The position numbers and the translations under genes are program-made. This document shows, piece after piece, positions 870 to 33,252 of a stretch of 64,000 nt of DNA. Every line of letters begins with the position of its first letter. Position 1 is the stretch's first letter. Below the pieces are notes generated by a model, which made no database searches, was not told the DNA's origin, and saw only the letters and a program-made list of their open reading frames with translations. This stretch comes from Candidatus Parcubacteria bacterium (GTDB lineage: Bacteria; Patescibacteriota; Patescibacteriia; Patescibacteriales; UBA12075): the NCBI GenBank assembly GCA_963814275.1, contig CAWFCE010000002.1, positions 811,263 to 875,262 on the forward strand. Reading direction: 5' to 3'.

Positions 870-3092
870 ATGATGATTTCCAAAATGCGAATTTTAGCCC
901 ATTTATTTCTGGCGATTTTTTTGACACTCGGCTTATCCATTTCCCTCCAGTCCCTGCTCGCCGCCTGGACCCCTCCAAGTGCAGCCCCGCCAAACGGCAA
1001 TGTAACCGAGCCATTGTATACTGCCACGCTTTCAGACCCGGTAAATCAAACCAAGTATGGAATTTTGAATTTAATAGACGGATTCACGGTTGACACTAAT
1101 ACGCTTGTAGTAGATGCGACAGGTAATAAAGTCGGTATCGGTATGAATGATCCAAATGTTAAATTGACAATCGGGACCAAAGGCGGCAATGTTGCTAACG
1201 GGACCATTGCCAGTTTCTATAATGGGGATGAAACCACATTAAAAGTATTAGCGGTTGCCAATACGAACGGTACTGGTGCTCACATGCAGTTAATGGAAAA
1301 CAATCCTAACCTATACGGTTTTGACACCTGGTATGACACCGGAAACAATATGCTGTTAATAGATTCGTATGTAAATAATACTAAAACCAACATAATTGAT
1401 ATCACAACAGCCGGCAATGTCGGTATCGGTGCGGTTAATCCAAATGCCCGTTTAACAGTCAAAACAAATACCGCCTTTAATCAGTTCAGCCTGATTACCG
1501 AAGGTGTAATCGCTGGAGGCTGGGCCAGGGGGGCTGATATGCAGTATTACGAATCGGCCGCTCCAACAACTCTGCATCGCGGGTTCGCTTACGGTATGTA
1601 CGGTTCTGGCGATACATTGACCGGAACCTATTTTTCTTCCGTAAAAGATGATGCCGCCCCCTGGACTACGGCGCAATTATTTCTAAATAGTAATGGTAAT
1701 GTCGGAATAGGAACGAATGCGCCGGTAAATCAGCTTACCGTGTTAAATGACGGCTCGGATGCTATTACGATGGCTGTCGGAGGACCTTATCCGGCAGTAA
1801 GTGGAGTGAGCGGAACAAATTATTACAAACAATTAGAAATAAAAGAACCGGTATATAAAATACCCACTGGTTATACTGAAAATGGGTATCGTATCGGTTT
1901 GGCAGTGCAGGGATATGTTTCTACGAGTGATTTTGCGGGTACGTTAAAGGATCAGTATGGAGCATGGATAAGGACTGGGTCTAATTCAAATAATCCGACA
2001 GGTACTATAACAAATTCATATGGTGTATATATAGATAATTTAAGCTCCCCAAACGTAACTATCACAAAATCTTATGGTTTATACCAGTCTTCATCGGGAG
2101 CAATGAACTATTTTGCCGGCAACGTCGGCATCGGGACGAATGCGCCAGGAACAAAGTTGGATGTCGCGGGCGTTATACAGTCAAATGATATGGGGCGTTT
2201 CAAAGGCTGGACGGCGACCGGCGCAACCGGCCGGGCAGTTGAAGTGGGAATTTCCAGCGGTATTGGCTATGTTTATAATTATGATAGAACAGCCAGTACT
2301 TATGGTGAGCTGGATTTTAATAACGCCATCCGCATAGTAGGCAGTAATGGTAATATCGGAATTCATACTACTGCCCCGACCCTGCCAGTAGATATTCGGG
2401 GTTATACCAGGATTGACGGTTCTGCCAGTTATGATGTTTGGATACAGGGGGGTAGTAGTACCGCCGGCGGCGATGCCCGCAATTTAGCGATGTTAGGTAT
2501 AAAGGCAACTGATGTGCTTTCTATAAATCATTCTTCGGAATATGCCGGCGGAACGCAAATCGGTGGTCCTGTTAGCGTAGTCGGCAACCTTACCGTTTCC
2601 GGACAATATCTTGGTGGTTCCTGTGATGTGGCCGAACGCTACCAGGCGGTAGAGGAGGATTCCGAAATACTCGAACCGGGGGATATCGTCTCGTTATCAG
2701 CCGACAATGAACTGAAGATCGAAAAAGTCAGCGCTCCTCTCAGCAGTATGGCGATCGGCGTTTATTCCACTAAGCCGCAGATGGTGATGGGCGATACCGA
2801 TGAGGCCAAAGATCGCAATGACCCGCCGGTCGCCCTGATCGGCCGGGTGCCGGTCAAGGTGACGGACGAGAACGGGCCGGTCAAAGTGGGTGATCTGATC
2901 GTCAGTTCATCGAAGCCCGGCTACGGTATGGGTTGCCGATTGAAAGAGCTGGATTTATCCCTGCCCGAGGATGAGCGTTGGCAGATACTGGCCGACAACG
3001 AGAAATGCCGCAACGCCGCGATCGGCAAAGCGCTCGAGAATCTGGGGGCAGGCGAGGGAAGGATCGAAGTATTTTTAACCAAAGGAAATTAG
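870..3092 (+). CDS. Secreted fibre/beta-helix-like protein with GN[VI]GIG repeats and a conserved C-terminal domain
   Basis: Signal-like N-terminus (LFLAIFLTLGLSISLQSLLA). There are five copies of G-N-x-[VI]-G-I-G-x-x-x-P-x-x-x-L-[TD]-[VI] (GNKVGIGMNDPNVKLTI, GNVGIGAVNPNARLTV, GNVGIGTNAPVNQLTV, GNVGIGTNAPGTKLDV, GNIGIHTTAPTLPVDI). This motif is typical of tail-fibre-like proteins. The C-terminal module is CDVAERY...EPGDIV...PVALIGRVPVKV...VKVGDLIVSS. Confidence 0.75.
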   Translation: MMISKMRILAHLFLAIFLTLGLSISLQSLLAAWTPPSAAPPNGNVTEPLYTATLSDPVNQTKYGILNLIDGFTVDTNTLVVDATGNKVGIGMNDPNVKLTIGTKGGNVANGTIASFYNGDETTLKVLAVANTNGTGAHMQLMENNPNLYGFDTWYDTGNNMLLIDSYVNNTKTNIIDITTAGNVGIGAVNPNARLTVKTNTAFNQFSLITEGVIAGGWARGADMQYYESAAPTTLHRGFAYGMYGSGDTLTGTYFSSVKDDAAPWTTAQLFLNSNGNVGIGTNAPVNQLTVLNDGSDAITMAVGGPYPAVSGVSGTNYYKQLEIKEPVYKIPTGYTENGYRIGLAVQGYVSTSDFAGTLKDQYGAWIRTGSNSNNPTGTITNSYGVYIDNLSSPNVTITKSYGLYQSSSGAMNYFAGNVGIGTNAPGTKLDVAGVIQSNDMGRFKGWTATGATGRAVEVGISSGIGYVYNYDRTASTYGELDFNNAIRIVGSNGNIGIHTTAPTLPVDIRGYTRIDGSASYDVWIQGGSSTAGGDARNLAMLGIKATDVLSINHSSEYAGGTQIGGPVSVVGNLTVSGQYLGGSCDVAERYQAVEEDSEILEPGDIVSLSADNELKIEKVSAPLSSMAIGVYSTKPQMVMGDTDEAKDRNDPPVALIGRVPVKVTDENGPVKVGDLIVSSSKPGYGMGCRLKELDLSLPEDERWQILADNEKCRNAAIGKALENLGAGEGRIEVFLTKGN

Positions 3093-3239: not shown

Positions 3240-3620
3240 ATGCCGACAAATAATAACAGTATAATAAATATCGATACTGGCTTATATCCTCTCGAAGCAG
3301 TAATTAGCGCTAGTTACGTTTTTCTGGATAGGGCGTATATTCTCCTGGATCAACCCAAAACCGGAGTCGTCAAAGTGTCTTTTAAACCCAAAAAGGGTGG
3401 TGCGGCAAAGCTAAAAGACGAATTCATGAATGAATTACTGTTCGCGGTTGAGCGTCTAAATGCCGCCAAAAGAAATAAAAGGATACGCGAATTTATCGTC
3501 GGCCGCGCCCTCTTCAGCTCAGTCAATTATAATGAGGCAAACGCCGGCCTTGAAGCTTTAAGCATGAGTGATAACGAGAAAGATCCACTGGGGATCGGTA
3601 CACCCTGGCAAGAAAAATAA
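3240..3620 (+). CDS. HxsD-like small protein (His-Xaa-Ser system accessory protein-like)
   Basis: 126 aa. The N-terminal 'IDTGLYPLEAVISASYVFLDRAYILLD' resembles, from memory, the Y-x-x-E-A-[VL]...Y-x-F-x-D pattern of HxsD (TIGR03976). It lies directly upstream of an HxsB-like SPASM protein. Not verified by HMM. Confidence 0.4.
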   Translation: MPTNNNSIINIDTGLYPLEAVISASYVFLDRAYILLDQPKTGVVKVSFKPKKGGAAKLKDEFMNELLFAVERLNAAKRNKRIREFIVGRALFSSVNYNEANAGLEALSMSDNEKDPLGIGTPWQEK

Positions 3621-3684: not shown

Positions 3685-3888
3685 ATGCAAATGAAATTCA
3701 ATAAGAAAATTTATAATAAAAAAGCGCTTAAGCGGGCAATAACCGATTTTCGAGACTTTGCTACTTTTCAGCTTGAAACAAACGCAAACTATTATATAAT
3801 CAGAACGGCGGAAAAGATAAATACAAAAAATCAGGCGGAGTTAAGCGATGAATTCGGGAACTACGCGCTTGGTTTGTTGAAAAAATGA
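3685..3888 (+). CDS. Second, shorter HxsD-like small protein
   Basis: 67 aa. 'FNKKIYNKKALKRAITDFRDFATFQLE' shows the same pattern as the 3240 product. The stop overlaps the next start (ATGA at 3885-3888). Confidence 0.35.
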   Translation: MQMKFNKKIYNKKALKRAITDFRDFATFQLETNANYYIIRTAEKINTKNQAELSDEFGNYALGLLKK

Positions 3889-5324
3889 AAAAAATAAATC
3901 CAAAAATCAATGATAATCTGACCGCCATCGGATATAAAATGATCAATGGCCAGTATTTGCTGGTCAATTGGTGGGGGTATTACGTATATTTGACTCCCGA
4001 AGAATTCTCTTTTGTCCAGTCGAACCAGGAAGTGGATGATGACAAACTGCATGCCTATCTTTCCAGTAATTTTTTTCTGCGCCGCTGTATCAACACGTCA
4101 TTTTTGACGGATCGTTTTCGGATCAAAAAACGATACCTGCTCGAAGGGCCAACCAGGCACGATATCAAAATTAACCGGCGCAGAAATGACGGATACGTTT
4201 TGGATTGGAGCAGCTCCGACGATAGCAGCGATGCCAGCGAAGCGGTGATGAGTAAAACCACCGCCGACAAGGTATTGGACTCAGTCTTCGGGACTACGGC
4301 GAAAAGAATAAATATCAATCTCAAAGGCGGCGAGCCGTTGATCAATTTCGATTCGGTCGATTATATTATAAAAAGGATAAAAGCCAAGAAAAAAACCGTT
4401 AATAAGCAAGTTACCGTTACGATCCAGACTAACGGTGTACTCCTGGACAGGAAAACGCTTGATTATTTTTTGTCCGCGAAAATAACCATTAAATTGCCAT
4501 TAGCCGGACCGTCGGAAATTCATGACCCGTTATTTCCCAGCGTCAAAAATCACTATGCCCATATTACCGGATTATTGAAACATATAAAAGAAAAATATCC
4601 CAAATTGGCGTACGACAATAAAAGAGCGGTGGTGAATTTCCAACCGGTAGTGACCAAAGATTCGCTCAAACACGGACGCCGTATAGTTGATGAATATGCC
4701 AAACTGGGAATAAAGGAAATCACATTATCTCCCCTGGACCCCTATGGCCTAAATCCGCAAATATGGCGGTGTTATGGATATTCACTCGACAAATTTTTCG
4801 AATTTTACAAATCTGCGCTTGACCGTATAATCGAGCTAAATCTCGGCAAAAAAATAATAAAAGATAATTTTTCCTCGATATTTTTAACAAAAATACTTAC
4901 CGACCGGGACCCCGACCATCCGGAATGGCGTTCGCCGTGCGGCGCTGGTATCGGCCGCCTGAGTTACGATACAGATGGTTCCGTCTTTACCTGCGATGAG
5001 GGTATGGCATTGTCAAAAAAGGGTGATAATGTTTTCCGGCTGGGGAATGCGAATAAAAACGATTATGAAGATTTAGTTACACACCCCACGACCAGGGCGG
5101 TGTGTACTGCTTCATGCGTTGAAGCCTTGCCGGGTTGCGATAATTGTATATATCACCCTTATTGCGGAGTGTGTCCTGTATACAGTTATCACACCTCGGG
5201 TAACATCGTTTCCAACTTTTCGGAAAACGCCAGATGCAAATTAACAACCGGTATCCTGGATAATTTGTTTGTTAAATTGCAGGACAAAAAAACGAAACGC
5301 CTGTTTACGGAATGGGTTTGCTGA
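3885..5324 (+). CDS. HxsB-like SPASM-domain protein that lacks the radical-SAM CxxxCxxC triad (probable pseudo-rSAM)
   Basis: 479 aa. The GGEP strand (NLKGGEPLINFD) is retained. So is a full SPASM Cys set (SPCGAG...DGSVFTCDEG...CTASC...PGCDNCIYHPYCGVCP). At the position where the triad should sit (aa 95-108) the sequence reads KINRRRNDGYVLDW and has no Cys. Confidence 0.7.
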   Translation: MKKINPKINDNLTAIGYKMINGQYLLVNWWGYYVYLTPEEFSFVQSNQEVDDDKLHAYLSSNFFLRRCINTSFLTDRFRIKKRYLLEGPTRHDIKINRRRNDGYVLDWSSSDDSSDASEAVMSKTTADKVLDSVFGTTAKRININLKGGEPLINFDSVDYIIKRIKAKKKTVNKQVTVTIQTNGVLLDRKTLDYFLSAKITIKLPLAGPSEIHDPLFPSVKNHYAHITGLLKHIKEKYPKLAYDNKRAVVNFQPVVTKDSLKHGRRIVDEYAKLGIKEITLSPLDPYGLNPQIWRCYGYSLDKFFEFYKSALDRIIELNLGKKIIKDNFSSIFLTKILTDRDPDHPEWRSPCGAGIGRLSYDTDGSVFTCDEGMALSKKGDNVFRLGNANKNDYEDLVTHPTTRAVCTASCVEALPGCDNCIYHPYCGVCPVYSYHTSGNIVSNFSENARCKLTTGILDNLFVKLQDKKTKRLFTEWVC

Positions 5325-5358: not shown

Positions 5359-5598
5359 ATGGCCAAAAAGAAATCAAAGCTTACCCCAAAATATCCCAAT
5401 ATCAAAAGGGATATTAAAGATTTTTTACTGAACGAAGAAGGCAATATTACGAAAAAGGATATCGTTAAAATGGGTTTGGGCCTGATGGTGCTGGGCTTGG
5501 GTCTGAAATCGAATATCGATGCAAAAGCCGAAGCGCCCAACAACACGGTTTGCGACAGATGCAGTGCTCAGCTGGGTCAATGCCATCCCTGGTATTGA
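5359..5598 (+). CDS. Small membrane-anchored peptide with a 3-Cys C-terminal tail (candidate modified peptide)
   Basis: ATG at 5359 gives 79 aa: MAKKKSKL...KDFLLNEEGNITKKDIVKMGLGLMVLGLGLKSNIDAKAEAPNNTVCDRCSAQLGQCHPWY. The order is a basic N-terminus, one hydrophobic helix, then a CxxC...C tail. The longer track ORF starting at 5269 overlaps the preceding gene and was not used. Confidence 0.5.
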   Translation: MAKKKSKLTPKYPNIKRDIKDFLLNEEGNITKKDIVKMGLGLMVLGLGLKSNIDAKAEAPNNTVCDRCSAQLGQCHPWY

Positions 5599-5613: not shown

Positions 5614-6564
5614 ATGTCAATGTCATATTACGCTAAAATTACAATTTTTTTTCTGGGTTGCCTTGCCTTAGGTGTGGTAATAGGAACCATTGGCGGCGTT
5701 GCTTATCATTGGCACAAAATGAACCAAATTTCTGAAAATATACCCGTAGTCAATCCAAGCCCAACGCCATCGGATAATCTGTCCGCCTCCACGTCCGCTC
5801 AGAATAGCGAAATATCAGTATCAAGTACCACGACAATCGTTGAAAATTTTATACCGCTCACAATAGAAGAAAGGACAGCTTGTATTACCCACCTAAAAAA
5901 TTCCGATGAGAACGAGTTGGCCAACCAGGCGAAAAATATCAGGTATCCCCATGGGGCAGTGGCGGATGATGAGAGGGATCGGATAAATGCAGCACAAAAA
6001 TATTTGTTATTGTATTTTATGGGTAATTATAACTTCGAAAGAAAAGACGAGGATTACGAAAAAATAGTCGATTATATAAATAATATGGATAATATAACCG
6101 AGGATACGAGAAATGTGGAAATGACGGGTTTGACCCAGCTAGCCGATAGTCCCGCCACTTCTTTTACGATTGCCCTGGCAGACGCTGATTATAATTATAT
6201 ATGTCCCGATAAATTATCCGATTTATGCATAAACCGCACCAGAATTTCCGGAGCGCCGGTTTATGAGGAGTGGTGCCAAAACTTATGCGATGATATTACA
6301 GAATATCCGGTCGACACACAACGATACAAACAGGAAATTACGGAATTCACCGACTGGCAGAATGATAAAAATTATGCATATGGACAAAGTACTTGGCGGG
6401 CGGCAATGGCATATCGGCTGGAAGGCAGAGACAAAGCGGTTAGCGTATGCGACAATTTAAGAGAGAATGATGTTAAAAACATTTGTATCGGTGAAGTTGA
6501 TGATTATGATAAATTTAACCCCGAGATATCCTTCGATAAATTTGTCAACATCGTTTGCCAGTAA
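5614..6564 (+). CDS. Membrane-anchored hypothetical protein with a Cys-rich ectodomain
   Basis: 316-aa ORF with an N-terminal TM helix (ITIFFLGCLALGVVIGTIGGVAY), a Ser/Thr-rich linker and 9 Cys after the TM helix. No recognisable family. Confidence 0.6.
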   Translation: MSMSYYAKITIFFLGCLALGVVIGTIGGVAYHWHKMNQISENIPVVNPSPTPSDNLSASTSAQNSEISVSSTTTIVENFIPLTIEERTACITHLKNSDENELANQAKNIRYPHGAVADDERDRINAAQKYLLLYFMGNYNFERKDEDYEKIVDYINNMDNITEDTRNVEMTGLTQLADSPATSFTIALADADYNYICPDKLSDLCINRTRISGAPVYEEWCQNLCDDITEYPVDTQRYKQEITEFTDWQNDKNYAYGQSTWRAAMAYRLEGRDKAVSVCDNLRENDVKNICIGEVDDYDKFNPEISFDKFVNIVCQ

Positions 6565-6626
6565 TTGTGGCATTTTAATAATTAACCGGTAATAAGATAT
6601 TTTTTTAAAAATATCTTTTTTAGTAT

Positions 6627-7368: not shown

Positions 7369-7737
7369 TTGCTGGTTTTCCTCCGACAAATAGTGACCAA
7401 ATACGACGTCAGGAGATGCGTACCGCCGGTCGGTATCAACGTCACCGCCTTTTGCATGTGCGGTATCCCCGGGGAAACCGTTTCCGATATGTATGCTACA
7501 TATGATTTTAAAGTCCGCTGCGGCTTTGACAGTGCGTCATTTTTTGCCGCCACCCCGATGATCGGTTCGGAATTATTGGAAATTTGCCGCAAAAATAATT
7601 ATTTGAATAAAAATTATAGCAAGGTGCGTAATTTCTTGAAATTAGGCAATATCACCACCACCGAATTCAAATCTGCCGAAGTCGAGTCGTTGGTCAAAAA
7701 GTTCTACAGACAATACAAAAAAACGATAAAAGGATAA
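7369..7737 (+). pseudogene. C-terminal stub of a B12-binding-type (class B) radical SAM enzyme
   Basis: FCMCGIPGETVSDMYATYDF...DSASFFAATPMIGSEL matches the '[FL]-x-x-G-x-PGET...F-x-x-TP-x-PG[ST]' C-terminal half of class B rSAMs. No B12 domain or Cys triad lies upstream, because the NTP-transferase gene ends at 7331. Confidence 0.55.
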
Positions 7738-10074: not shown

Positions 10075-11655
10075 ATGGAAATGAAATTGGTTTTTTTCCT
10101 GCCATTTTATAACATTCCGCAGCATGACCTCGTTTCGTGGCTGCCGCTATCCGCACCCAATCTGATCGGCAACATTAAAAAAGATTTTCCCACAGTCGGT
10201 TTTTCGGTTATCGAACTGCACAAACTTTTTAAAGAGGTATTTACCGGCCGGGAAATGGAAAATTTACGTAAAGATCTGTATAGATTCTTCAAAACCAATC
10301 CAACGGCCAAAGACCTGGAATTTTATGAGAAATATTTCAAACAGATCGATAAAATCCTGGATCTGGGGCAATATGATCATTTCCTTTTTTCCCATTATTG
10401 CGCCTGGATAATCGGCATTAAAGCGAATATGCTTTTTGCCAGGTATTTGAAAAATAAATATCCTGACAAAAAAATAATTTTTGGCGGAGTTTACGGCTTC
10501 GGCAAGAATTACGACAAATGTTCTTTTGAGGAATTTGGTTATATCGATGCTACTGTAGTCGGCTATGGTGAAAATTCCGCCAAAGAAATATTGCGTAGTT
10601 TGCTGGCCGGTAAAAAACTGAAAAAACTTTATTGCACTTATACTCCGCCGCACGAAGTGATAGAGAATTTGCCGGATTATCATTCCATCATAGATTTGGA
10701 TAAATCCAGATATAATGCCGCTCAACTTGAGAAATTATATAATATCGAGCTGCCCCGCAGCCGTAGCAGGGAAAGGGTATTGTTTATTCCTTATAAATTC
10801 AATATCGGGTGCAATTGGCAGAATTGCGCATATTGCCGGCAGTCCTATGGCATCAATTTCAAGCCAAGACCGGCATATTACACCAAGGACCATCAGACAA
10901 TAATTTCCGAATTGAAATATTTGAAAAAAACATATAAATCGGATTATTTCATATTCAAAAGCAATAATTTCAATATCAGCCTCGGGTGGTGTAAAAAATT
11001 ACTTAGCCGGATGATCGATGAAAAGCTGGATATACTTTGGTCCGATTCATTCAACCTGAGCGTAATTGACGATGAACTGCTGGAGATGTTGGCGGCAGCG
11101 GGATGCTTTCGCATGGACCTGGGAGTGACTACCCTGAACCCAAATCTTCAAAAAATGTACAATAATCGTTTGCAGGACAATGGATTGCTGGAAAATCTCA
11201 AAAAAATATCTTCACATGGGATTTGGACACATATCAATTTGATAGTTAATCTGCCCTTCCAGTATTCGATTGATGGTGAAATAGAAACTCTGAAAAAATA
11301 TATCGCTTACATTGACGGTGTAGCTATAAATAATTACCGCCGCACGCCTGATACGGATATCAGCATCAATTACAAAAAATATAAAATAGACAAAATACAT
11401 GTCGAATTCAAAGAAAATAATAAGCGGTATTATTTGTATTATATCGAAAATGAATTCAAGGGCGGACTGGAACTGAGAAAAAAGATGTTCGCCGCCAATC
11501 ATTTTAAAATGATAAATTTTTTCAAAGATCAGGGGCTCATCAATACAGCTGATTATGCACATTTGTATTTATTGGGGTATTTATACAAGCAATTCGGTTT
11601 TAAGGAAAAAACAAAGATCAAGAGGATTATTACTGAAGCTAAGCCTAAATATTGA
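10075..11655 (+). CDS. B12-binding-domain (class B-like) radical SAM enzyme with a Cx4Cx2C cluster motif
   Basis: The N-terminal Rossmann-like segment (KKIIFGGVYGF...IDATVVGYGENSAKEIL) resembles a cobalamin-binding domain. The cluster motif IGCNWQNCAYC has Cys246/251/254, encoded at nt 10810-10836. Confidence 0.65.
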   Translation: MEMKLVFFLPFYNIPQHDLVSWLPLSAPNLIGNIKKDFPTVGFSVIELHKLFKEVFTGREMENLRKDLYRFFKTNPTAKDLEFYEKYFKQIDKILDLGQYDHFLFSHYCAWIIGIKANMLFARYLKNKYPDKKIIFGGVYGFGKNYDKCSFEEFGYIDATVVGYGENSAKEILRSLLAGKKLKKLYCTYTPPHEVIENLPDYHSIIDLDKSRYNAAQLEKLYNIELPRSRSRERVLFIPYKFNIGCNWQNCAYCRQSYGINFKPRPAYYTKDHQTIISELKYLKKTYKSDYFIFKSNNFNISLGWCKKLLSRMIDEKLDILWSDSFNLSVIDDELLEMLAAAGCFRMDLGVTTLNPNLQKMYNNRLQDNGLLENLKKISSHGIWTHINLIVNLPFQYSIDGEIETLKKYIAYIDGVAINNYRRTPDTDISINYKKYKIDKIHVEFKENNKRYYLYYIENEFKGGLELRKKMFAANHFKMINFFKDQGLINTADYAHLYLLGYLYKQFGFKEKTKIKRIITEAKPKY

Positions 11656-23577: not shown

Positions 23578-24130
23578 CGGCCTGGGTAACGGGCTGGTCG
23601 AATATTTCCGGCCCGGATCGAGAGGTATTAGCCGCCGTAACGGATACGATATTAACACAAACCGAGACAAGATCGTCGACCTGGCCCGTAGTTTTGATGT
23701 ATTCGTTAATCTGGCGAATTCCGGATTCAACCAGGCCTTAATGCTGTATGATATATTTAACGATTGGGAAAAAATCGATAAAAAAGGATATATAATCAAT
23801 GTCGGTTCTTACGGAACTTATAATCCGGGAGATGCGTGGCGACCCTGGCTGGCCGCCAAATTCGCCCTGGATATCGCCAATAAACAGTGCTGTAAAAAAA
23901 TCGAAGAAAAAAACTTGCCATTCCGCTCCACGAATATAAGATTCGGAATGCTTGATACCGATAAAAGCCGGGCTAAACCGAATTGGGAAGGGGTTGGCCA
24001 TCGGGCAGAAGATATCGCAAAATTGATCATATATCTGTGGAGCCAATTCAAAAGTAATGCACCGTATGATTTCAACGAAATTACGGTAAATAATATAAAA
24101 AATAATTTGGGAGAATTGCTACAAAAATGA
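23531..24130 (+). CDS. Short-chain dehydrogenase/reductase-like protein (atypical)
   Basis: The Rossmann motif is LITGGLDGLGNGL and NLANSG corresponds to NNAG. At the expected YxxxK position the sequence reads W-L-A-A-K, so catalytic competence is uncertain. Confidence 0.45.
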   Translation: MPKNIHPKFLITGGLDGLGNGLVEYFRPGSRGISRRNGYDINTNRDKIVDLARSFDVFVNLANSGFNQALMLYDIFNDWEKIDKKGYIINVGSYGTYNPGDAWRPWLAAKFALDIANKQCCKKIEEKNLPFRSTNIRFGMLDTDKSRAKPNWEGVGHRAEDIAKLIIYLWSQFKSNAPYDFNEITVNNIKNNLGELLQK

Positions 24131-25509
24131 ACCGCGAATCAAAAAATAGTATCAGTGAGACATTCTGTGTTTTACCTTGGATACACTTATCAACCCGGCC
24201 GAACGGGCACCTGCGTTGTTGCTGTACTGCCTGTGCCAGTTCAGCGGCTCCGATACTGAAAAATCCGGAGGTCGGATATATCAAAAACGAGCAGGGACGC
24301 CCCGCAAACCTAAATACCTGCGACTTATTGACAGCCTGGAATAACGATTATATGAAAAACATCCGGGTGGCGATGTTGAATGGACAAATTCCGCCTAGTT
24401 GTGAAAAATGTTTCAAGGAGGAAAAAGCCGGGCTCCGCAGTAAACGGATGTGGGAGACGGAATATTGGTCAAGTCGCGTGGACATAGGGGAAATGATAGA
24501 AAAGACCTCGCCCGACGGGAGCATCGCTCCAAACATTAATTACGTCGATTTGCGGCTTGGCACCAAATGTGATTTGAAATGCATAATGTGTTCGCCCCAT
24601 GATTCGAGTGAGTGGATACCGGATTGGTTGAAACTTTACCCGCAAATTACGAGCGAGAGACTGAAGCAGATCATGATCTGGAAAAATTACGGCCGGACTG
24701 ACGGAGCGACCTATGACTGGTACCGTGATAATAATAAATTTTGGTCGCAATTTTATGAGCAGATCCCCAATTTGAAGCAACTTTACTTCGCCGGAGGGGA
24801 ATCATTGGTGATCGACAGACATTATCAATTGCTCAAAGAATGCATTCGGCAGGGTCATGCGAAAAACATTACTCTTCGCTACAATTCGAACGGACTGGCG
24901 TTGAGTGACGAATTATTCAAACTTTGGCAGCCTTTTAAACGCGTTCGATTCGGGTTCAGCATTGATTCGATAGGGGAAATGAACAGTTATATCCGCTTTC
25001 CTTCGCGATGGGAAACAATAGAAAACAACCTGGATATACTTGACCGGTCGGAGGACAACATCGAAATTACGATCGCATTCGCGATTCAGATACTGAATAT
25101 ATATTATTTGCCCGATTTCATCAAATGGAAGCTCAAAAAAAATTATAAAAAGATCAATCTTTGGCCCAACGGCGCCGGCCTGATCAATACCCACTTTGTC
25201 TATCATCCGGCGCATCTGAACGTCAAAGTTTTACCGCCCTGGTATAAGGATAAGGTGGCGGAAAAGTATGAGAATTTTTACGGTTGGCTTCTGGAAAATC
25301 ACCGTCATGACGGCGAGTTTGTCGAGCATCCTTACGGAATCAACAGGCTTAAGGGCATCATAAAATTTATGTATAGCGAAAACTGGTCTAGCCTTTTGGG
25401 CGAATTCAAGGAGTATATTACGTTAATGGACGAAATCAGAAATACCGATTTTAAAAAAGTATTTCCCGAGATGAAAAAAATAATAGATCAAAATGATGCA
25501 ATCAAATGA
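24127..25509 (+). CDS. Radical SAM protein with an N-terminal 4-Cys (twitch-like) module, paralogue 1 of 7
   Basis: FCVLPWIHLSTRPNGHLRCCC...PPSCEKCF, then the triad LGTKCDLKCIMCSPHDSSEW, then YFAGGESLV and YIRFPSRWETIE. Confidence 0.85.
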   Translation: MNRESKNSISETFCVLPWIHLSTRPNGHLRCCCTACASSAAPILKNPEVGYIKNEQGRPANLNTCDLLTAWNNDYMKNIRVAMLNGQIPPSCEKCFKEEKAGLRSKRMWETEYWSSRVDIGEMIEKTSPDGSIAPNINYVDLRLGTKCDLKCIMCSPHDSSEWIPDWLKLYPQITSERLKQIMIWKNYGRTDGATYDWYRDNNKFWSQFYEQIPNLKQLYFAGGESLVIDRHYQLLKECIRQGHAKNITLRYNSNGLALSDELFKLWQPFKRVRFGFSIDSIGEMNSYIRFPSRWETIENNLDILDRSEDNIEITIAFAIQILNIYYLPDFIKWKLKKNYKKINLWPNGAGLINTHFVYHPAHLNVKVLPPWYKDKVAEKYENFYGWLLENHRHDGEFVEHPYGINRLKGIIKFMYSENWSSLLGEFKEYITLMDEIRNTDFKKVFPEMKKIIDQNDAIK

Positions 25510-26773
25510 CCTATCGAAAAATTCGAATTTTTGCTTCGCCCCATGGATCCATTTGGTCATAACGCAGGGGGGAGATATCAGGCCTTGTAATGATTTCCAA
25601 ATGAATTTTGGCAGCATAAAAAATGATAATTTGGAATCGGTTTTCAACAATGAAAATTTCAAAAAACTGAGGGACGACCTTTTACACGGACGATTACATC
25701 CGGGGTGCCGGGGTTGCCGGGAAAAAGAAAGGTTGATCGGGTACTCCCGCAGGATCAGCATAGACAGTCAAATCAAGGAGTGGGGAGAGCGAAAGGAAAA
25801 GTGGAAACTTAAAACCGAAGTTACGGCAAAAAATATAAAATGGCTGGATATAAGATTGAGTAATTACTGCAATTTGAAATGCCGGCATTGCTATCCGGCG
25901 CTAAGTACGCGCTGGTTCGAAGATATCAAAGGGTTTGAGGGTGTGAAATTCACCAAGGATTCGCAGCGCCTTTCTTTGGAAGAATATTTTCACGCTTATC
26001 GCAAAAGAAAAGGCGAGAACCTGCCGTTAAAGAAGATTTACGAGGTGATTGACGCCGTGGGACGCCCTTTAAAGCGGATAGAGTTCAAGGGGGGAGAACC
26101 GTTTCTGCAAAAAGAACTGCCGATATTTTTGGAATATTATCTGGATAATATATCTCCGGAAAAGAGCAGCCAAAAAACCACCGATAAAACCCGGTTTGTG
26201 TTCGTCACAAACGGCACCATTATCCCTCCCAAAATAAAAGAATTGATCGCAAGATTGGGTTTGGCCGATATCTGCTATTCAGTTGAAGGTATAAGCAATG
26301 CTTATGATTACATCAGGGGTGACGGGAAATATCGGCTTAAAGATATTAGGAAAAATATTTTGGAATTGGATGAATTGCCGAATGTAAAAACTTCGTTTAG
26401 GATTACCTGCATGGCTTATAATATATTCGAAATCCCCAGGATATATTCCTGGATAAGCCGATTACCGCTCAAAAGAAACGCCAAGAATATAATTATCGAG
26501 AATTATGTAGTCAGACCGGATTTTTTGAACGTAATGGTGATCCCGTACGATATTAGGCACCGGGCGGCCAAGGGTATAAATAAGATATTAAAAAACAAAA
26601 AGAAAAATCTCGACGCTTCTATATACAGATTTTATGAATCACTAAACGAGCGGGTTGACGGTTTTTCCAGAAAAAACTTGGAGAATTTCAAAATATACAC
26701 GGCCACTTTGGACAAAATCAGGGGCACTGACATCAAAGAGGCGATACCACAAATAAGAAAACTTTTTTTATAG
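25493..26773 (+). CDS. Radical SAM protein with an N-terminal 4-Cys module, paralogue 2 of 7
   Basis: FCFAPWIHLVITQGGDIRPC...PGCRGCR, then the triad LSNYCNLKCRHCYPALSTRW, then EFKGGEPFL. Confidence 0.85.
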   Translation: MMQSNDLSKNSNFCFAPWIHLVITQGGDIRPCNDFQMNFGSIKNDNLESVFNNENFKKLRDDLLHGRLHPGCRGCREKERLIGYSRRISIDSQIKEWGERKEKWKLKTEVTAKNIKWLDIRLSNYCNLKCRHCYPALSTRWFEDIKGFEGVKFTKDSQRLSLEEYFHAYRKRKGENLPLKKIYEVIDAVGRPLKRIEFKGGEPFLQKELPIFLEYYLDNISPEKSSQKTTDKTRFVFVTNGTIIPPKIKELIARLGLADICYSVEGISNAYDYIRGDGKYRLKDIRKNILELDELPNVKTSFRITCMAYNIFEIPRIYSWISRLPLKRNAKNIIIENYVVRPDFLNVMVIPYDIRHRAAKGINKILKNKKKNLDASIYRFYESLNERVDGFSRKNLENFKIYTATLDKIRGTDIKEAIPQIRKLFL

Positions 26774-26774
26774 C

Positions 26775-27989
26775 ATGAAAGACAAGATACCGAAAAATAA
26801 ATATTTTTGCATCCTACCTTTTATTCACCTTTCGATTTTCAATGATCACATCAAGCCATGTTGCCGTTTTGGCGTTAATGAGGATTTCGTAAAAAATATA
26901 AACAAAAATATCGATCAATTCAATAATTTTACGGAAATTTTATGTCATAAAGAATATGACCATCTTAGGAGCAGTATAATCAGCGGTGAAAAAATTGACG
27001 GATGCTACAAATGTTACATGGAAGATGAGTCGGGATGCGAAAGTCTTCGCGCCGGTTCCAACAACCTTTATCGGCATTATCTGTCCAAAGACCTGAAACC
27101 GAAACTGAAATTTCTGGAAATTGGTTTCAGTAATTTATGCAATAACCGTTGCCGAACTTGCTCCTCCGATCTGAGTACAGCCTGGCGTGAGGACGATATA
27201 AAACTTGAAAAATTCCTTAAATTCAGATATGCGAAATACTATGATATTAAAACATCCGTTAAAGCGTTAACTAACAGAGACTACAGCGAGCTGGACGGAT
27301 TGGAATATCTGAAAATCGTCGGCGGTGAACCGATGCTGGATGCCAATTTCAAAAAATTTTTAAGAAGGTTGATCGATTCGAGGATTAATCGGCATTGCCA
27401 TCTCGATATTTTTACGAACGTATCTTATTTTCCGGATGATAATACGATCGAACTGGTTAACTCTTTCCGAACCGGTCGAGTGCATTTATCGATCGACAGT
27501 TACGGAAAAATAAACGAGTATATCCGTTTCCCCAGCCGGTGGCGATCAGTCGAAAAATCCGCGATAAAATGGCTTGCGCTGGAAAGCGATAATGTGGCCC
27601 TGGATGTGCAATTGGAAGTTACAATATCGATTTACAGTGTCCTTTATCTGGAAAATCTGATTGACTGGTGGCTGCGGATACGCGCCGAAACCGGGAACAA
27701 AAGAAACGCGGTTCATTTCATTTTCTTATTTAACCCTGATTTACTATCGATCATCAATGTATCGGATATTATAAAAGAAAGTTTTATCGAAAAAATCGTC
27801 TTATTGCGGGATAAATACAAGGATGATAAAAATATAATATTCAATATTGAGAATTTGCATTCTTTTATATCAGGTGTCGGCAAAGATAAGGTAAAAGATT
27901 TTTTAGCATACACTTATTTTCTTGATAAGATCAGAAACGAATCGTTCGAGGATGTTTTTCCCGAGTTATCTAAGCTATTAATAAGATAG
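26775..27989 (+). CDS. Radical SAM protein with an N-terminal 4-Cys module, paralogue 3 of 7
   Basis: FCILPFIHLSIFNDHIKPCC...DGCYKCY, then the triad FSNLCNNRCRTCSSDLSTAW, then KIVGGEPML and YIRFPSRW. Confidence 0.85.
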   Translation: MKDKIPKNKYFCILPFIHLSIFNDHIKPCCRFGVNEDFVKNINKNIDQFNNFTEILCHKEYDHLRSSIISGEKIDGCYKCYMEDESGCESLRAGSNNLYRHYLSKDLKPKLKFLEIGFSNLCNNRCRTCSSDLSTAWREDDIKLEKFLKFRYAKYYDIKTSVKALTNRDYSELDGLEYLKIVGGEPMLDANFKKFLRRLIDSRINRHCHLDIFTNVSYFPDDNTIELVNSFRTGRVHLSIDSYGKINEYIRFPSRWRSVEKSAIKWLALESDNVALDVQLEVTISIYSVLYLENLIDWWLRIRAETGNKRNAVHFIFLFNPDLLSIINVSDIIKESFIEKIVLLRDKYKDDKNIIFNIENLHSFISGVGKDKVKDFLAYTYFLDKIRNESFEDVFPELSKLLIR

Positions 27990-28018
27990 CAGTTTAATCT
28001 GCGTAAATCACTTATCCG

Positions 28019-29374
28019 ATGAATAATACATTCTGCCCCATTCCATGGTTAATGCTCGCCACCCGCACGAACGGCGACGTGCGGGTGTGTTGTCAAGCTA
28101 ATCAAGGTAAAACCCATGGTTTATTGACTGATAATCATGGCCGGCCTTACAATTTGAAAAGAAATACGATACTGGACAGCCGAAATGCCCCGCTCGCTTG
28201 CGAGATGAGGAAGAAAATGATCGAAGGGGAACGTCATCCCGAATGTTTACGCTGCTGGCGGGAAGAGGATAGCGGTATGTTATCCCGTCGGGAGCAGGAA
28301 ATTGAATTATGGCAGGAAGTGTTCGGCTTAAATGAAGCCAGGAAAATCACCGGCAAAAGAGGGGAAATTCCCGCGGATTTCGAGCCGATTTACTACGATT
28401 TAAGATTGGGCAACCTTTGCAACTTAAAATGCCGGATGTGTTTTCCGACCGATAGTTCCGGCTGGTATTCGGAATATAATGATATCTATGAAGATGATTA
28501 TTTTTACGATACCCACGGCAAAGTGCAGCTGGTTAAAAGGAGCAACGGCTGGCAAGCCAAAAATAACGATTATGATTGGTGTCTCAGGGAAAATTTTTGG
28601 CAGGATCTGGAATCGAAAATCGGAAATATCAGACATATATACATCGTCGGGGGCGAGCCGCTGCTGATCAGGAGGCATTATGAATTTTTGGAAAAATGCA
28701 TCGCCCTCGGTTACGCGAAAAATATCAAATTGGAATACAATACTAATATAACGACTATATCGGATGAAATACTCAAGTTATGGGCCAGTTTCAAAGAAGT
28801 GCGCATCGGAGCGAGCGTTGACGGATACGGCAAGATAGATGAATATATCCGTTACCCGAGTAAATGGGAGACGATAGAGAGGAATTTACAAAAAATAGAC
28901 AAGATGGAGGGCAACGTTCTGGCTTGGATCGCCTGCACGGTAATGATTTACAACGTATATTATATCCCGGATTTCATCAAATGGAAGCTGGAATCGAACT
29001 TCAAACGCATTAATCCGATTACCCGGCCTAAGCCGTTTCTGACCCTTCATCCATTGCATACCCCCCCGTATTTCAATATCAAAGCTTTACCGTTGAATGC
29101 AAAAAAAGCGGTCGCCAATAAGTATCGGGATTTTTATGACTGGTATGATGAGTATATCAGCCACCAGACGGTGGAAAACAAGGAATTGCTGAGGAAAAAA
29201 TTACGCCACACCCTGGACGGATATATTAATTATATGAATAAGGCGGATTGGACCCGCGAACTAAACAGATTCTGGGAGGTTACCCGCCGCCTTGACGAAT
29301 CGAGAAATCAAAATATCGAAGAATTTTTGCCGGAATTGTACCGGCTGATCGGAAAAAGTGAAAAAAATGGATAA
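28019..29374 (+). CDS. Radical SAM protein with an N-terminal 4-Cys module, paralogue 4 of 7 (closest to paralogue 1)
   Basis: FCPIPWLMLATRTNGDVRVCC...PECLRCW, then the triad LGNLCNLKCRMCFPTDSSGW, then YIVGGEPLL, YIRYPSKWETIE and IPDFIKWKL. Confidence 0.85.
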   Translation: MNNTFCPIPWLMLATRTNGDVRVCCQANQGKTHGLLTDNHGRPYNLKRNTILDSRNAPLACEMRKKMIEGERHPECLRCWREEDSGMLSRREQEIELWQEVFGLNEARKITGKRGEIPADFEPIYYDLRLGNLCNLKCRMCFPTDSSGWYSEYNDIYEDDYFYDTHGKVQLVKRSNGWQAKNNDYDWCLRENFWQDLESKIGNIRHIYIVGGEPLLIRRHYEFLEKCIALGYAKNIKLEYNTNITTISDEILKLWASFKEVRIGASVDGYGKIDEYIRYPSKWETIERNLQKIDKMEGNVLAWIACTVMIYNVYYIPDFIKWKLESNFKRINPITRPKPFLTLHPLHTPPYFNIKALPLNAKKAVANKYRDFYDWYDEYISHQTVENKELLRKKLRHTLDGYINYMNKADWTRELNRFWEVTRRLDESRNQNIEEFLPELYRLIGKSEKNG

Positions 29375-30542: not shown

Positions 30543-30615
30543 ATACCATGCCCAATGATTATTCCATCGCATAATTGTTAGAAAAAGCGATTCCATTAAT
30601 TGCTGCCGCGTATTC

Positions 30616-30741
30616 ATGCGCATAATTCGTAAATTCAGAAAAGAATTCAAAAAAGGCGTTAATACGGCTTGTAACGAAATGTGTCCGGGAAAGATTAAGA
30701 AAATTATGTATGCCGAAGAACTTAATCTAAAAAAATTTTAA
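30616..30741 (+). CDS. Possible 41-aa small ORF in the only large gap of the rSAM array
   Basis: ATG at 30616 to TAA at 30739-30741 gives MRIIRKFRKEFKKGVNTACNEMCPGKIKKIMYAEELNLKKF (2 Cys). There is no clear SD, it is below the ORF-track cutoff, and it could be a chance ORF. Confidence 0.2.
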   Translation: MRIIRKFRKEFKKGVNTACNEMCPGKIKKIMYAEELNLKKF

Positions 30742-30750
30742 ACCAAAATA

Positions 30751-31905: not shown

Positions 31906-31918
31906 ATAAAGCGTATCA

Positions 31919-33229: not shown

Positions 33230-33252
33230 ATGAAAATACCTTTATTGAATAT

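What the first reader, a model, noticed from the sequence alone, without database searches (positions are those of the whole stretch)
5359..5598. 79-aa signal-anchored peptide with a CxxC...C-H-P-W-Y tail as a candidate rSAM substrate
This small ORF lies immediately downstream of the Hxs-like trio. It has a Lys-rich N-terminus, the motif KDFLLNEEGNITKKDIV, one hydrophobic helix (MGLGLMVLGLGL) and a 30-aa tail ending TVCDRCSAQLGQCHPWY. The layout of anchor followed by a short Cys/aromatic tail parallels HxsA-type substrates. It would also suit thioether or C-C crosslinking by SPASM enzymes. It is the best precursor-like ORF that I could find in the whole rSAM block.
Basis: inference. Interest (0 to 1): 0.55.

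Follow-up and report, generated by a model that had tools for sequence, protein, structure and literature searches.

The report
Repeat-less Hxs peptide beside dead maturase
The 79-residue ORF is a real, conserved small secreted peptide whose front half matches His-Xaa-Ser (Hxs) precursor peptides; it has swapped the His-Xaa-Ser repeats for a three-cysteine tail, and its partner "radical SAM" enzyme has lost the iron-sulfur site needed for radical chemistry, so it is probably no longer a radical SAM substrate.

Summary
The ORF at 5359-5598 (+) reads exactly as described and is a genuine gene. Its relatives keep the protein sequence although silent DNA sites have changed almost completely.

- **Family.** Residues 11-56 match the leader of NCBIfam HxsA3, below the family cutoff. 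An exhaustive search found 154 relatives with the same leader and hydrophobic segment. Nearly all have His-Xaa-Ser repeat tails; this one has none.
- **Tail.** It reads CxRC...CHPWY. Two other metagenomic peptides keep the same pattern (CSRC...CYPWY and CDEC...CYPY).
- **Gene order.** HxsD-like, HxsD-related, HxsB-like, peptide, then a 316-aa membrane protein. This order recurs in other contigs.
- **The partner enzyme.** The window's HxsB-like protein and its two closest relatives lack the CX3CX2C radical SAM motif and many invariant core residues. They keep all seven SPASM cysteines and an N-terminal domain that looks like a RiPP recognition element (RRE, the leader-binding fold).
- **Covariation.** In the few loci resolved, repeat-less cysteine tails sit next to cluster-less HxsB. 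Repeat-bearing peptides sit next to intact HxsB.

The claim that the adjacent enzyme modifies the peptide by radical SAM chemistry probably does not. The "anchor" looks like a cleavable signal peptide. This is a new variant of a known system and of moderate interest.

The parts
5359..5598 (+). 79-aa precursor-like peptide gene: HxsA3/A4-type leader and signal region joined to a tail with no His-Xaa-Ser repeat, CxRC-x6-CHPWY
5359..5469 (+). Residues 1-37. Lys-rich conserved leader (n-region) with the family motif P-x-[IL]-K-[KR]-D-I-K-x-F-L-x-x-E-E-G-x-[IM]-x-K-K-D. Presumed docking site for the RRE-like domain of the HxsB-like protein.
   Evidence: NF038309 match to residues 11-56. The leader is conserved across 154 family representatives. 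The docking role is inferred.
5470..5505 (+). Residues 38-49, MGLGLMVLGLGL: hydrophobic h-region of 12 residues, too short for a typical membrane-spanning helix
   Evidence: family median run 13 residues, IQR 12-16
5506..5529 (+). Residues 50-57, KSNIDAKA: c-region with an A-x-A signal peptidase I type motif. Predicted cleavage after A57; the alternative AEA site has Pro at +1.
   Evidence: Read directly from the sequence. Across the family, A-x-A occurs in 61/130 c-regions against 5/112 control segments. Cleavage itself is inferred.
5530..5595 (+). Residues 58-79, EAPNNTVCDRCSAQLGQCHPWY: predicted mature core. C65, R67, C68, G73, C75, P77, W78 and Y79 are identical in P0002. C-x-x-C, the third Cys and a P-(W)-Y end are kept in L008.
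3885..5324 (+). 479-aa HxsB-like pseudo-radical-SAM/SPASM protein. It has an RRE-like N-terminal domain, a degenerate radical SAM core and an intact SPASM domain.
   Evidence: TIGR03978 323.7 bits, below the 370 cutoff. Motif analysis. AF2 model pLDDT 89.5. Best PDB fold match is CteB, 5wgg.
4182..4205 (+). Residues 100-107, RNDGYVLD: the site where canonical HxsB has CxxxCxYC. All three cluster cysteines are replaced (R, Y, D).
4929..5237 (+). Residues 349-451: SPASM region. The RSPCGAG motif and Cys352, 370, 418, 421, 427, 430 and 451 are all retained.
3685..3888 (+). 67-aa HxsD-related protein. Its stop overlaps the start of the HxsB-like gene.
   Evidence: NF038315 69.6 bits, above the 41 cutoff. 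The same gene sits in this position in L003, L004, L005, L008, L010 and L016.
3240..3620 (+). 126-aa HxsD-like protein
   Evidence: TIGR03976 47.1 bits, just under the 50 cutoff. It is 58-62% identical to the HxsD of loci with canonical HxsB, L004 and L010.
5614..6564 (+). 316-aa Cys-rich protein with an N-terminal anchor, conserved immediately downstream of the precursor. Probably a fifth cassette gene, function unknown.
   Evidence: No family hit. A homologue sits directly after HxsA4 in L004 (E 1e-21).
870..3092 (+). 740-aa secreted repeat protein, a conserved upstream neighbour of the cassette. Whether it belongs to the system is uncertain.
   Evidence: Its N-terminal signal region is nearly identical to that of the 970-aa Peptidase_S74-domain protein upstream of the cassette in L004.

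Best explanation
**What it is.** The ORF encodes a small exported peptide of the HxsA3/HxsA4 lineage found in Patescibacteria-type and Omnitrophota-type metagenomes. It has three parts:
- a 37-residue conserved Lys-rich leader
- a 12-residue hydrophobic h-region followed by an A-x-A site
- a roughly 22-residue core, EAPNNTVCDRCSAQLGQCHPWY

**What has changed in this sub-lineage.** Two things differ together. The precursor has lost every His-Xaa-Ser repeat and keeps only a short CxxC...C-[HY]-P-(W)-Y tail. The cognate HxsB has lost the CX3CX2C [4Fe-4S]/SAM site and other core residues. It retains its RRE-like N-terminal domain and the complete SPASM cysteine set, and it remains under purifying selection.

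**Most likely mechanism (inferred).**
1. In the cytoplasm, the leader is bound by the RRE-like domain of the pseudo-HxsB, together with the two HxsD-type proteins.
2. These proteins act as a non-radical escort or processing module. This is the chaperone/translocator role already proposed for the Hxs proteins in E. coli. One possibility is that the peptide's cysteines contact a SPASM auxiliary cluster.
3. The peptide is exported by Sec and cleaved after A57.
4. The free, or disulfide-bonded or metal-bound, Cys3/His/aromatic peptide acts outside the cell.

**Shown versus inferred.** Shown here: the gene is real, the leader is homologous, the cassette order is conserved, the radical SAM site is lost, the SPASM set is retained, selection is purifying, and tail type covaries with cluster loss. 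Inferred: export, cleavage site, absence of radical modification, and the escort role.
For: **Leader homology and family**
- NF038309 HxsA3 matches residues 11-56 at E 4.7e-9.
- 154 representatives share the leader and h-region. 96 of 136 small members have at least 2 HxS.
- The nearest repeat-bearing relatives (P0123, P0124, P0127) have a Cys-rich stretch, then HxS repeats, then a terminal Y. The window tail aligns with the Cys-rich stretch.

**Cassette**
- The order HxsD, HxsD-related, HxsB, peptide (plus a 316/332-aa protein) recurs in L003, L004, L008, L010 and L016.

**Dead radical SAM core**
- 118 of 120 HxsB hits have CX3CX2C. Only the window protein and P0004 lack it, and a further search added P0271.
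- Column analysis shows replacement of C100, C104, C107, D121, E145, Q147, S205, D207 and R217, with all SPASM Cys retained.
- Identity between the window protein and the other two clade members is 23-27% in the core, against 52-59% in the N-terminal and SPASM regions. Canonical HxsB proteins average 57% in the core.

**Still functional**
- dN/dS is 0.15 overall for L003 versus L008. By region it is 0.08 in the N-terminal domain and 0.22 in the core.
- The AF2 model is confident (pLDDT 89.5) and has a beta-beta-beta-alpha-alpha-alpha N-terminal domain.
- The best fold match is CteB (5wgg), an enzyme with RRE, radical SAM and SPASM domains.

**Covariation**
- Cluster-less HxsB sits with repeat-less Cys tails in the window, L008 and L009. 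L003 and L016 have cluster-less HxsB, but their peptides are cut by the contig end.
- Intact HxsB sits with HxS-repeat peptides in L004, L005 and L010/L011.

**Precedent.** HxsB C98A/C101A abolishes HxsA processing and defence in E. coli, and the authors propose that Hxs proteins also act as dedicated chaperones or translocators (PMC13128918).

**Signal peptide.** Hydrophobic runs have a median of 13 residues. A-x-A is enriched just after them, 61/130 against 5/112.
Against: - There is no experimental evidence that the peptide is made, exported or cleaved.
- The covariation rests on few loci: three repeat-less and three to four repeat-bearing loci with both partners readable.
- The cluster-less HxsB proteins may stem from a single loss. 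The three-member clade has 98/100 bootstrap support, and L009 joins it in only 46/100 replicates. The association could therefore be one historical event.
- The window holds at least 14 intact radical SAM genes. One of them could modify the peptide in trans.
- Contigs for the sister loci are about 2 kb, so I could not check whether such enzymes co-occur there.
- The core of the pseudo-HxsB is still under some constraint (dN/dS 0.22), so a non-canonical activity cannot be ruled out.
- The signal peptidase site comes from a simple motif rule, not from a trained predictor.
Confidence: 0.6

Rival explanations
1. The peptide is still a radical SAM substrate. The pseudo-HxsB only binds and presents the leader, as a stand-alone recognition scaffold. 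One of the many intact radical SAM/SPASM enzymes further along the same strand installs a thioether, C-C or other crosslink on the Cys/aromatic tail before export.
For: - At least 14 ORFs with an intact CX3CX2C lie at 11.7-37.4 kb on the same strand. Several of them carry SPASM or twitch domains.
- The pseudo-HxsB keeps an RRE-like domain and the SPASM cysteines.
- The tail's conserved Cys and aromatic residues are typical targets of such enzymes (general knowledge of sactipeptides, ranthipeptides and cyclophane-forming rSAM enzymes).
Against: - None of these enzymes resembles HxsC or HxsB.
- They are separated from the cassette by the 316-aa gene and a nucleotidyltransferase. They lie among sugar-nucleotide, glycosyltransferase, aminotransferase and reductase genes.
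- The syntenic cassettes in L004 and L010 have no such block next to them.
- A weak terminator-like hairpin sits at 6556-6572, at the end of the 316-aa gene.
Confidence: 0.2
2. The product is not cleaved. It stays in the membrane as a small single-pass protein with the N-terminus inside and the C-terminus outside. Its short Cys/aromatic tail is displayed on the cell surface, for example as a partner of the 316-aa membrane protein or of the large secreted repeat protein.
For:
- Positive charges lie before the hydrophobic run.
- Membrane and secreted proteins are conserved neighbours.
Against: - The hydrophobic run is only 12 residues (family median 13).
- It is followed by an enriched A-x-A motif.
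- E. coli HxsA is N-terminally processed and released into the periplasm (PMC13128918).
Confidence: 0.12
3. The cassette is a decaying remnant of an Hxs system. The HxsB-like gene and the short ORF are on their way to becoming pseudogenes and have no function.
For: The defining features of both partners have been lost: the HxS repeats and the CX3CX2C motif.
Against: - All genes are intact in five or six independent metagenomic contigs at 42-56% protein identity.
- Synonymous sites are saturated while pN is 0.22-0.32 for the peptide, and dN/dS is 0.15 for the HxsB-like gene.
- The Cys pattern, the SPASM cysteines and the N-terminal domain are conserved.
Confidence: 0.04

Closest known systems
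NCBIfam HxsA3 (NF038309) and HxsA4 (NF038313) His-Xaa-Ser repeat proteins. These are small precursors next to HxsB in candidate-phyla bacteria. They are defined bioinformatically; I found no experimental study of them.
   Same: - The conserved Lys-rich leader, the short hydrophobic segment and the A-x-A region are the same.
- The position directly after HxsB, with HxsD and HxsD-related genes upstream, is the same.
- Many members also have a Cys-rich stretch before the repeats and an aromatic residue at the C-terminus.
   Different: - There is no His-Xaa-Ser repeat at all.
- The NF038309 score is 35.9 bits against a cutoff of 65, and the match covers only profile positions 1-46 of 81.
- There is no NF038313 hit.
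- The partner HxsB lacks the radical SAM cluster.
HXS antiphage system of E. coli and other Pseudomonadota (HxsA/B/C/D; Li et al., Nat Commun 2026, PMC13128918)
   Same: HxsB-type and HxsD-type proteins are encoded next to an exported protein that needs them for maturation. The precursor has an N-terminal export signal. The paper proposes a chaperone or translocator role for the Hxs proteins.
   Different: [quoted passage not shown] One of them, SHRSS, carries a +8 Da modification.
- Two active radical SAM enzymes, HxsB and HxsC, are required there, and HxsC pairs with HxsD.
- Here there is no HxsC, no HxS repeat, no peptidoglycan-binding domain and no radical SAM cluster in HxsB. There are two HxsD-type genes.
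- Antiphage function has not been tested here.
CteB/SCIFF and other RRE-radical SAM-SPASM RiPP maturases with Cys-containing precursors (PDB 5wgg)
   Same: The predicted fold of the HxsB-like protein aligns over its full length with CteB: an N-terminal RRE, a barrel and a SPASM domain. The precursor is a leader plus a Cys-bearing core.
   Different: CteB needs its CX3CX2C cluster to form thioethers, and that site is absent here. The precursor carries a Sec-type signal between leader and core, which SCIFF peptides do not.
Pseudo-SAM/SPASM proteins, for example NCBIfam TIGR04347 ("pseudo-SAM/SPASM protein", Halobacteria). I know this family by its name only.
   Same: These are radical SAM/SPASM homologues annotated as lacking a functional SAM-cluster site while keeping the SPASM part.
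   Different: It is a different family: TIGR04347 is not among the 25 best of the 45 NCBIfam matches shown for the HxsB-like protein. No linked precursor peptide is known to me. The comparison rests on the family name and was not tested here.

Membership tests
HxsA3 / HxsA4 His-Xaa-Ser repeat proteins (NF038309 / NF038313) | Conserved N-terminal leader and hydrophobic segment | tested here: met
   NF038309 matches residues 11-56 to profile positions 1-46, E 4.7e-9. The leader aligns with 154 family representatives.
HxsA3 / HxsA4 His-Xaa-Ser repeat proteins (NF038309 / NF038313) | Whole-protein score at or above the curated cutoff | tested here: not met
   35.9 bits against a cutoff of 65, and no NF038313 hit. 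For comparison, the L004 and L005 peptides pass NF038313 with 70.5 and 90.3 bits against a cutoff of 55.
HxsA3 / HxsA4 His-Xaa-Ser repeat proteins (NF038309 / NF038313) | Tandem His-Xaa-Ser repeats in the C-terminal part | tested here: not met
   The window peptide, P0002 and the L008 peptide have zero H-x-S. 96 of 136 small family members have at least 2.
HxsA3 / HxsA4 His-Xaa-Ser repeat proteins (NF038309 / NF038313) | Encoded next to HxsB and HxsD-type genes | tested here: met
   the same order is seen in L003, L004, L008, L010 and L016.
HxsB radical SAM maturase (TIGR03978), for the neighbouring gene 3885-5324 | Full-length homology at or above the curated cutoff | tested here: not met
   323.7 bits against a cutoff of 370, although the match covers profile positions 10-466 of 466.
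HxsB radical SAM maturase (TIGR03978), for the neighbouring gene 3885-5324 | CX3CX2C motif binding the SAM-cleaving [4Fe-4S] cluster | tested here: not met
   The positions hold R100, Y104 and D107. The motif is present in 118 of 120 HxsB hits and absent only in the window protein and P0004, and also in P0271 from a later search.
HxsB radical SAM maturase (TIGR03978), for the neighbouring gene 3885-5324 | SPASM auxiliary-cluster cysteines | tested here: met
   C352, C370, C418, C421, C427, C430 and C451 are all retained.
HXS antiphage system (HxsABCD, PMC13128918) | Second radical SAM enzyme HxsC adjacent to HxsB | tested here: not met
   No TIGR03977 hit among the four window rSAM ORFs scanned. 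tblastn with a Bacteroides HxsC gives only weak generic rSAM matches, best E 5.8e-4 at 33.6 kb.
HXS antiphage system (HxsABCD, PMC13128918) | HxsD protein (TIGR03976) | tested here: inconclusive
   The 126-aa protein scores 47.1 bits against a cutoff of 50. The 67-aa protein passes the HxsD-related model NF038315 with 69.6 bits against 41.
HXS antiphage system (HxsABCD, PMC13128918) | [quoted passage not shown] | tested here: not met
   The peptide has no Pfam domain and no HxS. There are no PADLOC hits. The antiphage phenotype itself cannot be tested with these tools.
RiPP precursor / RRE-dependent maturation (generic) | Leader-core peptide encoded beside a protein with a RiPP recognition element | tested here: met
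   The leader is conserved across the family. The predicted N-terminal domain of the HxsB-like protein is beta-beta-beta-alpha-alpha-alpha, and the whole model aligns over its full length with CteB. Actual binding was not tested.
RiPP precursor / RRE-dependent maturation (generic) | Post-translational modification of the core | not testable with these tools
   This needs mass spectrometry of the expressed peptide.

The most novel reading that the evidence does not exclude
A natural split of HxsB's functions. In this lineage the radical SAM chemistry was discarded together with the His-Xaa-Ser repeats it acted on. The leader-binding domain, the SPASM Fe-S domain and the two HxsD proteins were kept to mature or export a different peptide, a Cys3/aromatic one. 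This would mean two things. First, HxsB and HxsD have an essential role that does not depend on SAM, such as escort, processing, or thiol or metal handling through the SPASM clusters. Second, the HxS repeats are the specific target of HxsB's radical chemistry in the systems that lack HxsC.
Probability: 0.35. Interest if true: 0.6.

Novelty: new variant of a known kind. Interest (0 to 1): 0.5.

Why it matters
The Hxs system was shown only in 2026 to be an antiphage defence. Its chemistry (a +8 Da modification) and the separate roles of HxsB, HxsC and HxsD are still unresolved.

A naturally occurring cassette in which HxsB has lost its radical SAM site, while the precursor has lost its HxS repeats, works like a ready-made separation-of-function mutant:
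- It points to the repeats as the target of the radical chemistry.
- It points to a second, non-radical job for HxsB and HxsD that selection has kept.

It also warns against annotating every small Cys-rich ORF next to a "radical SAM" gene as an rSAM-modified RiPP. And it extends the little-studied HxsA3/A4 peptides of candidate-phyla bacteria to forms without repeats.

Tried and rejected
**Searches that found little or nothing**
- A genome-contig scan with the HxsB-like protein returned only one canonical Bacteroides hxsA-D-B-C locus. It served as a reference but did not recover the source genome.
- A viral-contig scan found nothing.
- PADLOC gave only weak viperin-type noise for the HxsB-like protein.
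- Pfam gave only a spurious sub-threshold HECT_2 hit for the peptide.
- Rfam and tRNA scans of the whole window were empty.
- Promoter-like and terminator-like sites around the cassette were at chance level.
- A literature search for pseudo-radical-SAM/SPASM proteins returned nothing.
- The cluster look-up gave no accession or organism name. The window peptide's own gene was not on record in the contig index.

**Context look-ups that were uninformative**
- Contigs for the other repeat-less peptides P0155, P0184 and P0178 were too short to show the HxsB motif region.
- P0142 belongs to a different sub-type that has a second radical SAM gene downstream.

**Ideas considered and rejected**
- Lipoprotein. 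The first Cys lies 16 residues after the hydrophobic run, with no L-x-x-C lipobox next to it.
- The longer TTG start at 5269. It overlaps the HxsB-like gene and the homologues do not share it.
- An alternative cluster-binding site. The only Cys before residue 352 of the window HxsB-like protein is C68.
- Sequencing error as the cause of the missing motif. The region is in frame, and the clade members have different substitutions and deletions at the same place.

**Not resolved**
- dN/dS between the window genes and their relatives cannot be estimated because synonymous sites are saturated.
- The first NJ bootstrap run timed out and was redone with a faster distance calculation.
Full report
**1. 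The observation**

It has the Lys-rich start, KDFLLNEEGNITKKDIV, MGLGLMVLGLGL and a 30-residue tail ending TVCDRCSAQLGQCHPWY. It begins 34 nt after the stop of a 479-aa gene (3885-5324). That gene follows a 67-aa gene (3685-3888) and a 126-aa gene (3240-3620), all on the + strand.

NCBIfam names these three genes as follows:
- HxsB-like: TIGR03978, 323.7 bits, cutoff 370
- HxsD-related: NF038315, 69.6 bits, cutoff 41
- HxsD-like: TIGR03976, 47.1 bits, cutoff 50

So the "Hxs-like trio" is real.

**2. The ORF is a real gene**

The identical protein is on record from a 1.27-Mb contig. An 80-aa homologue, P0002, is 52% identical by BLASTP and 56% over the alignment. It keeps C65, R67, C68, G73, C75, P77, W78 and Y79. 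A third full-length homologue of 73 aa, on contig L008, ends QVCDECGPPAPCYPY.

Between the three genes, synonymous sites are saturated (pS 0.72-0.86) while pN is 0.22-0.32. This is the signature of a protein-coding gene under purifying selection. No Rfam family or tRNA overlaps the region.

**3. What family it belongs to**

Residues 11-56 match positions 1-46 of the 81-position NCBIfam model HxsA3 (NF038309) at E 4.7e-9. The score of 35.9 bits is below the 65-bit cutoff.

An exhaustive profile search of 1.84 billion cluster representatives gave 154 hits at E <= 1e-3. Almost all are proteins of 60-200 residues with the same layout: the leader (P-x-I-K-K-D-I-K-x-F-L-x-x-E-E-G-x-I-x-K-K), the same short hydrophobic segment, and then a variable tail.
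- In 96 of 136 small members the tail holds two or more His-Xaa-Ser units.
- Only the window peptide and P0002 matched over their full length.
- The next-best hits (P0123, P0124, P0127) have a Cys-rich stretch, then HxS repeats, then a terminal Tyr. An example is PCCRCGSYVPSDGVPVTPGTCSPTTHCSHSSHSSY.
- The window tail aligns with the Cys-rich stretch and simply lacks the repeats.

Repeat-bearing relatives from syntenic loci pass the curated HxsA4 model (NF038313: 70.5 and 90.3 bits, cutoff 55). The three repeat-less peptides hit only the HxsA3 leader at 32-36 bits.

The ORF is therefore an HxsA3/A4-lineage precursor that fails the family's defining feature.

**4. The cassette is conserved**

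Contig L004 carries the same gene order as the window:
- a large secreted protein
- HxsD (131 aa)
- a 66-aa HxsD-related protein
- HxsB (482 aa)
- a 99-aa HxsA4 with HSSHASHGSHGSHG... repeats
- a 332-aa protein

The 316-aa window protein and the 332-aa L004 protein are homologous (E 1e-21). The large upstream proteins share a nearly identical signal region. L003, L008, L010/L011 and L016 show the same core order.

**5. The partner "maturase" has lost its radical SAM site**

Among 120 HxsB homologues, 118 have CX3CX2C in the expected place. The window protein (P0003) and its nearest relative P0004 do not. A profile search with those two found a third cluster-less member, P0271 (783 bits; the best canonical HxsB scores 522).

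Column-by-column comparison shows the following:
- The window protein has R, Y and D where all other HxsB proteins have the three cluster cysteines.
- It also departs at other near-invariant core positions: D121V, E145N, Q147K, S205P, D207A and R217F.
- P0004 and P0271 have different substitutions and deletions at the same site.
- All three keep RSPCGAG and all seven SPASM cysteines.

Regional identity tells the same story:

| Region | Window vs other two clade members | Canonical HxsB mean |
|---|---|---|
| Radical SAM core | 23-27% | 57% |
| N-terminal domain | 52-57% | 39% |
| SPASM domain | 55-59% | 65% |

The protein is not decaying. dN/dS between L003 and L008 is 0.15 overall. By region it is 0.08 in the N-terminal domain, 0.22 in the core and 0.18 in the SPASM domain.

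HxsD evolves at its normal rate: it is 58-62% identical to the HxsD of canonical loci, which are 54% identical to each other. HxsB is accelerated: 39-43% against 53%.

An AlphaFold2 model is confident (pLDDT 89.5, pTM 0.90). Its low-confidence stretches are the first residues, the loop where the cluster motif would be (residues 100-120, block means 72 and 57) and residues 241-250 (64). Its N-terminal domain is beta-beta-beta-alpha-alpha-alpha. The best fold match, over the full length, is CteB (5wgg), an RRE-radical SAM-SPASM thioether synthase.

**6. Tail type covaries with cluster loss**

| Contig | HxsB cluster motif | Peptide tail |
|---|---|---|
| Window | absent | no repeats, Cys tail |
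| L008 | absent | no repeats, Cys tail |
| L009 | absent (partial HxsB-like; GGKP instead of GGEP; SPASM kept) | P0125: ...QCYNNCPCVAPPPPPPPPPPSCTSCTSGGDPCY |
| L003, L016 | absent | cut by contig end |
| L004, L005, L010/L011 | present | HxS repeats |

The three-member clade is well supported (98/100 bootstrap). L009 joins it in only 46/100 replicates. The number of independent losses is therefore one or two and remains unresolved.

**7. Signal anchor or signal peptide**

The hydrophobic run is 12 residues in the window and a median of 13 (IQR 12-16) across 130 family members. A strict A-x-A occurs within 16 residues after it in 61/130 members, against 5/112 in the next 16 residues.

The sequences after the hydrophobic run read DAKAEA-P in the window, VSA-Q in P0002 and ASA-Q in L008. 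I read the N-terminal 57 residues as a Sec-type signal peptide with an unusually long, conserved n-region. Cleavage after A57 would leave EAPNNTVCDRCSAQLGQCHPWY. This is inference from a simple rule, not a trained predictor.

**8. What is known about Hxs**

Li et al. (Nat Commun 2026, PMC13128918) showed that the E. coli HxsABCD system blocks phage DNA entry.
- HxsA is exported, N-terminally processed and carries a +8 Da modification on an SHRSS unit.
- HxsB C98A/C101A or HxsC C105A/C108A abolish processing and defence.
- HxsC binds HxsD.
- The authors suggest that the Hxs proteins also act as dedicated chaperones or translocators.
- They report 99.7% of systems in Pseudomonadota, so the HxsC-less HxsA3/A4 type of candidate-phyla bacteria is outside their survey.

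The window has no HxsC.

**9. Most likely mechanism**

The leader is probably bound in the cytoplasm by the RRE-like domain of the pseudo-HxsB with the two HxsD-type proteins. Because the SAM-cleaving cluster is gone and the repeats it would act on are gone, I think no radical modification is made by this module. Instead it escorts or processes the precursor. The conserved peptide cysteines may contact a SPASM cluster. Sec export and signal peptidase cleavage then release a roughly 22-residue Cys3/His/aromatic peptide, which may form a disulfide or bind a metal. Overall confidence is about 0.6. The gene, the homology, the dead site and the covariation are shown; the rest is inferred.

**10. 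Rivals**

- **Trans-modification by another radical SAM enzyme.** At least 14 ORFs with intact motifs lie at 11.7-37.4 kb. However, they sit among sugar-nucleotide and glycosyltransferase genes, none is HxsB-like or HxsC-like, and the syntenic cassettes elsewhere lack them. Confidence is about 0.2.
- **An uncleaved surface-displayed anchor.** Confidence is about 0.12.
- **A decaying remnant.** This is largely refuted by the selection data. Confidence is about 0.04.

**11. Verdict**

The specific claim that this is a radical SAM substrate of the adjacent enzyme is probably wrong.

The finding is a new variant of a known kind: a repeat-less, Cys-tailed Hxs-type precursor paired with a naturally cluster-less HxsB. 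Interest is moderate (0.5). It offers a natural separation-of-function case for a system whose chemistry is still open. It rests on a handful of short metagenomic contigs and no experiment.

Noticed in passing
window 11680-37356 (+): At least 14 ORFs carry an intact CX3CX2C. Eight of them are tandem paralogues (24127-34473) that share an N-terminal 'FCxxPW(I)HL' motif. They lie among nucleotidyltransferase, glycosyltransferase, aminotransferase and aldo-keto-reductase genes. This is an unusually dense radical SAM block of unknown product.
   Followed up: partly
window 870-3092 (+); L004 2257-5169: A 740-aa secreted protein with repeated 'G(N/K)VGIGT..P' units. Its signal region, LGLSISLQSLLAAWTPPSAAPP, is almost identical to that of the 970-aa Peptidase_S74-domain protein that precedes the Hxs cassette in L004. 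This suggests a conserved neighbour or a shared sorting signal.
   Followed up: partly
window 5614-6564 (+); L004 7834-8832: A 316-aa Cys-rich protein with an N-terminal anchor and no family hit. It is conserved directly after the precursor gene (E 1e-21) and is probably a fifth, uncharacterised cassette component.
   Followed up: partly
window 7369-7737 (+): A 122-aa TTG-start ORF matches only the last ~90 residues of B12-binding radical SAM enzymes (HpnJ / Sden_1168 type). It looks like a gene fragment.
   Followed up: no
family-wide (proteins P0123-P0270): 90 of 136 HxsA3/A4-like peptides have an aromatic residue at the last or penultimate position (WC 20, QW 11, SW 8, SY 6, CY 5). This C-terminal signature is shared by the window peptide (WY) and is unexplained.
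   Followed up: partly
L006 2242-3354; L015 346-1449: HxsA3 peptides ending in 'GGWC' are followed by a second, shorter radical SAM/SPASM gene (367-370 aa). This may be the functional counterpart of HxsC in candidate-phyla systems.
   Followed up: no
window 6556-6572 (+): A weak terminator-like hairpin with a T-run sits exactly at the end of the 316-aa gene. It could mark the 3' end of the cassette's transcription unit. Terminator-like sites in the region are at chance level overall.
   Followed up: no
window 10075-11655 (+): A 526-aa B12-binding radical SAM homologue has CNWQNCAYC (CX4CX2C) rather than the canonical CX3CX2C spacing.
   Followed up: no
window HxsB-like residue 68 (nt 4086-4088): The cluster-less HxsB clade has an invariant 'LRRC' cysteine (C68) in the N-terminal domain. 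The canonical HxsB consensus does not have it. Its significance is unknown.
   Followed up: no
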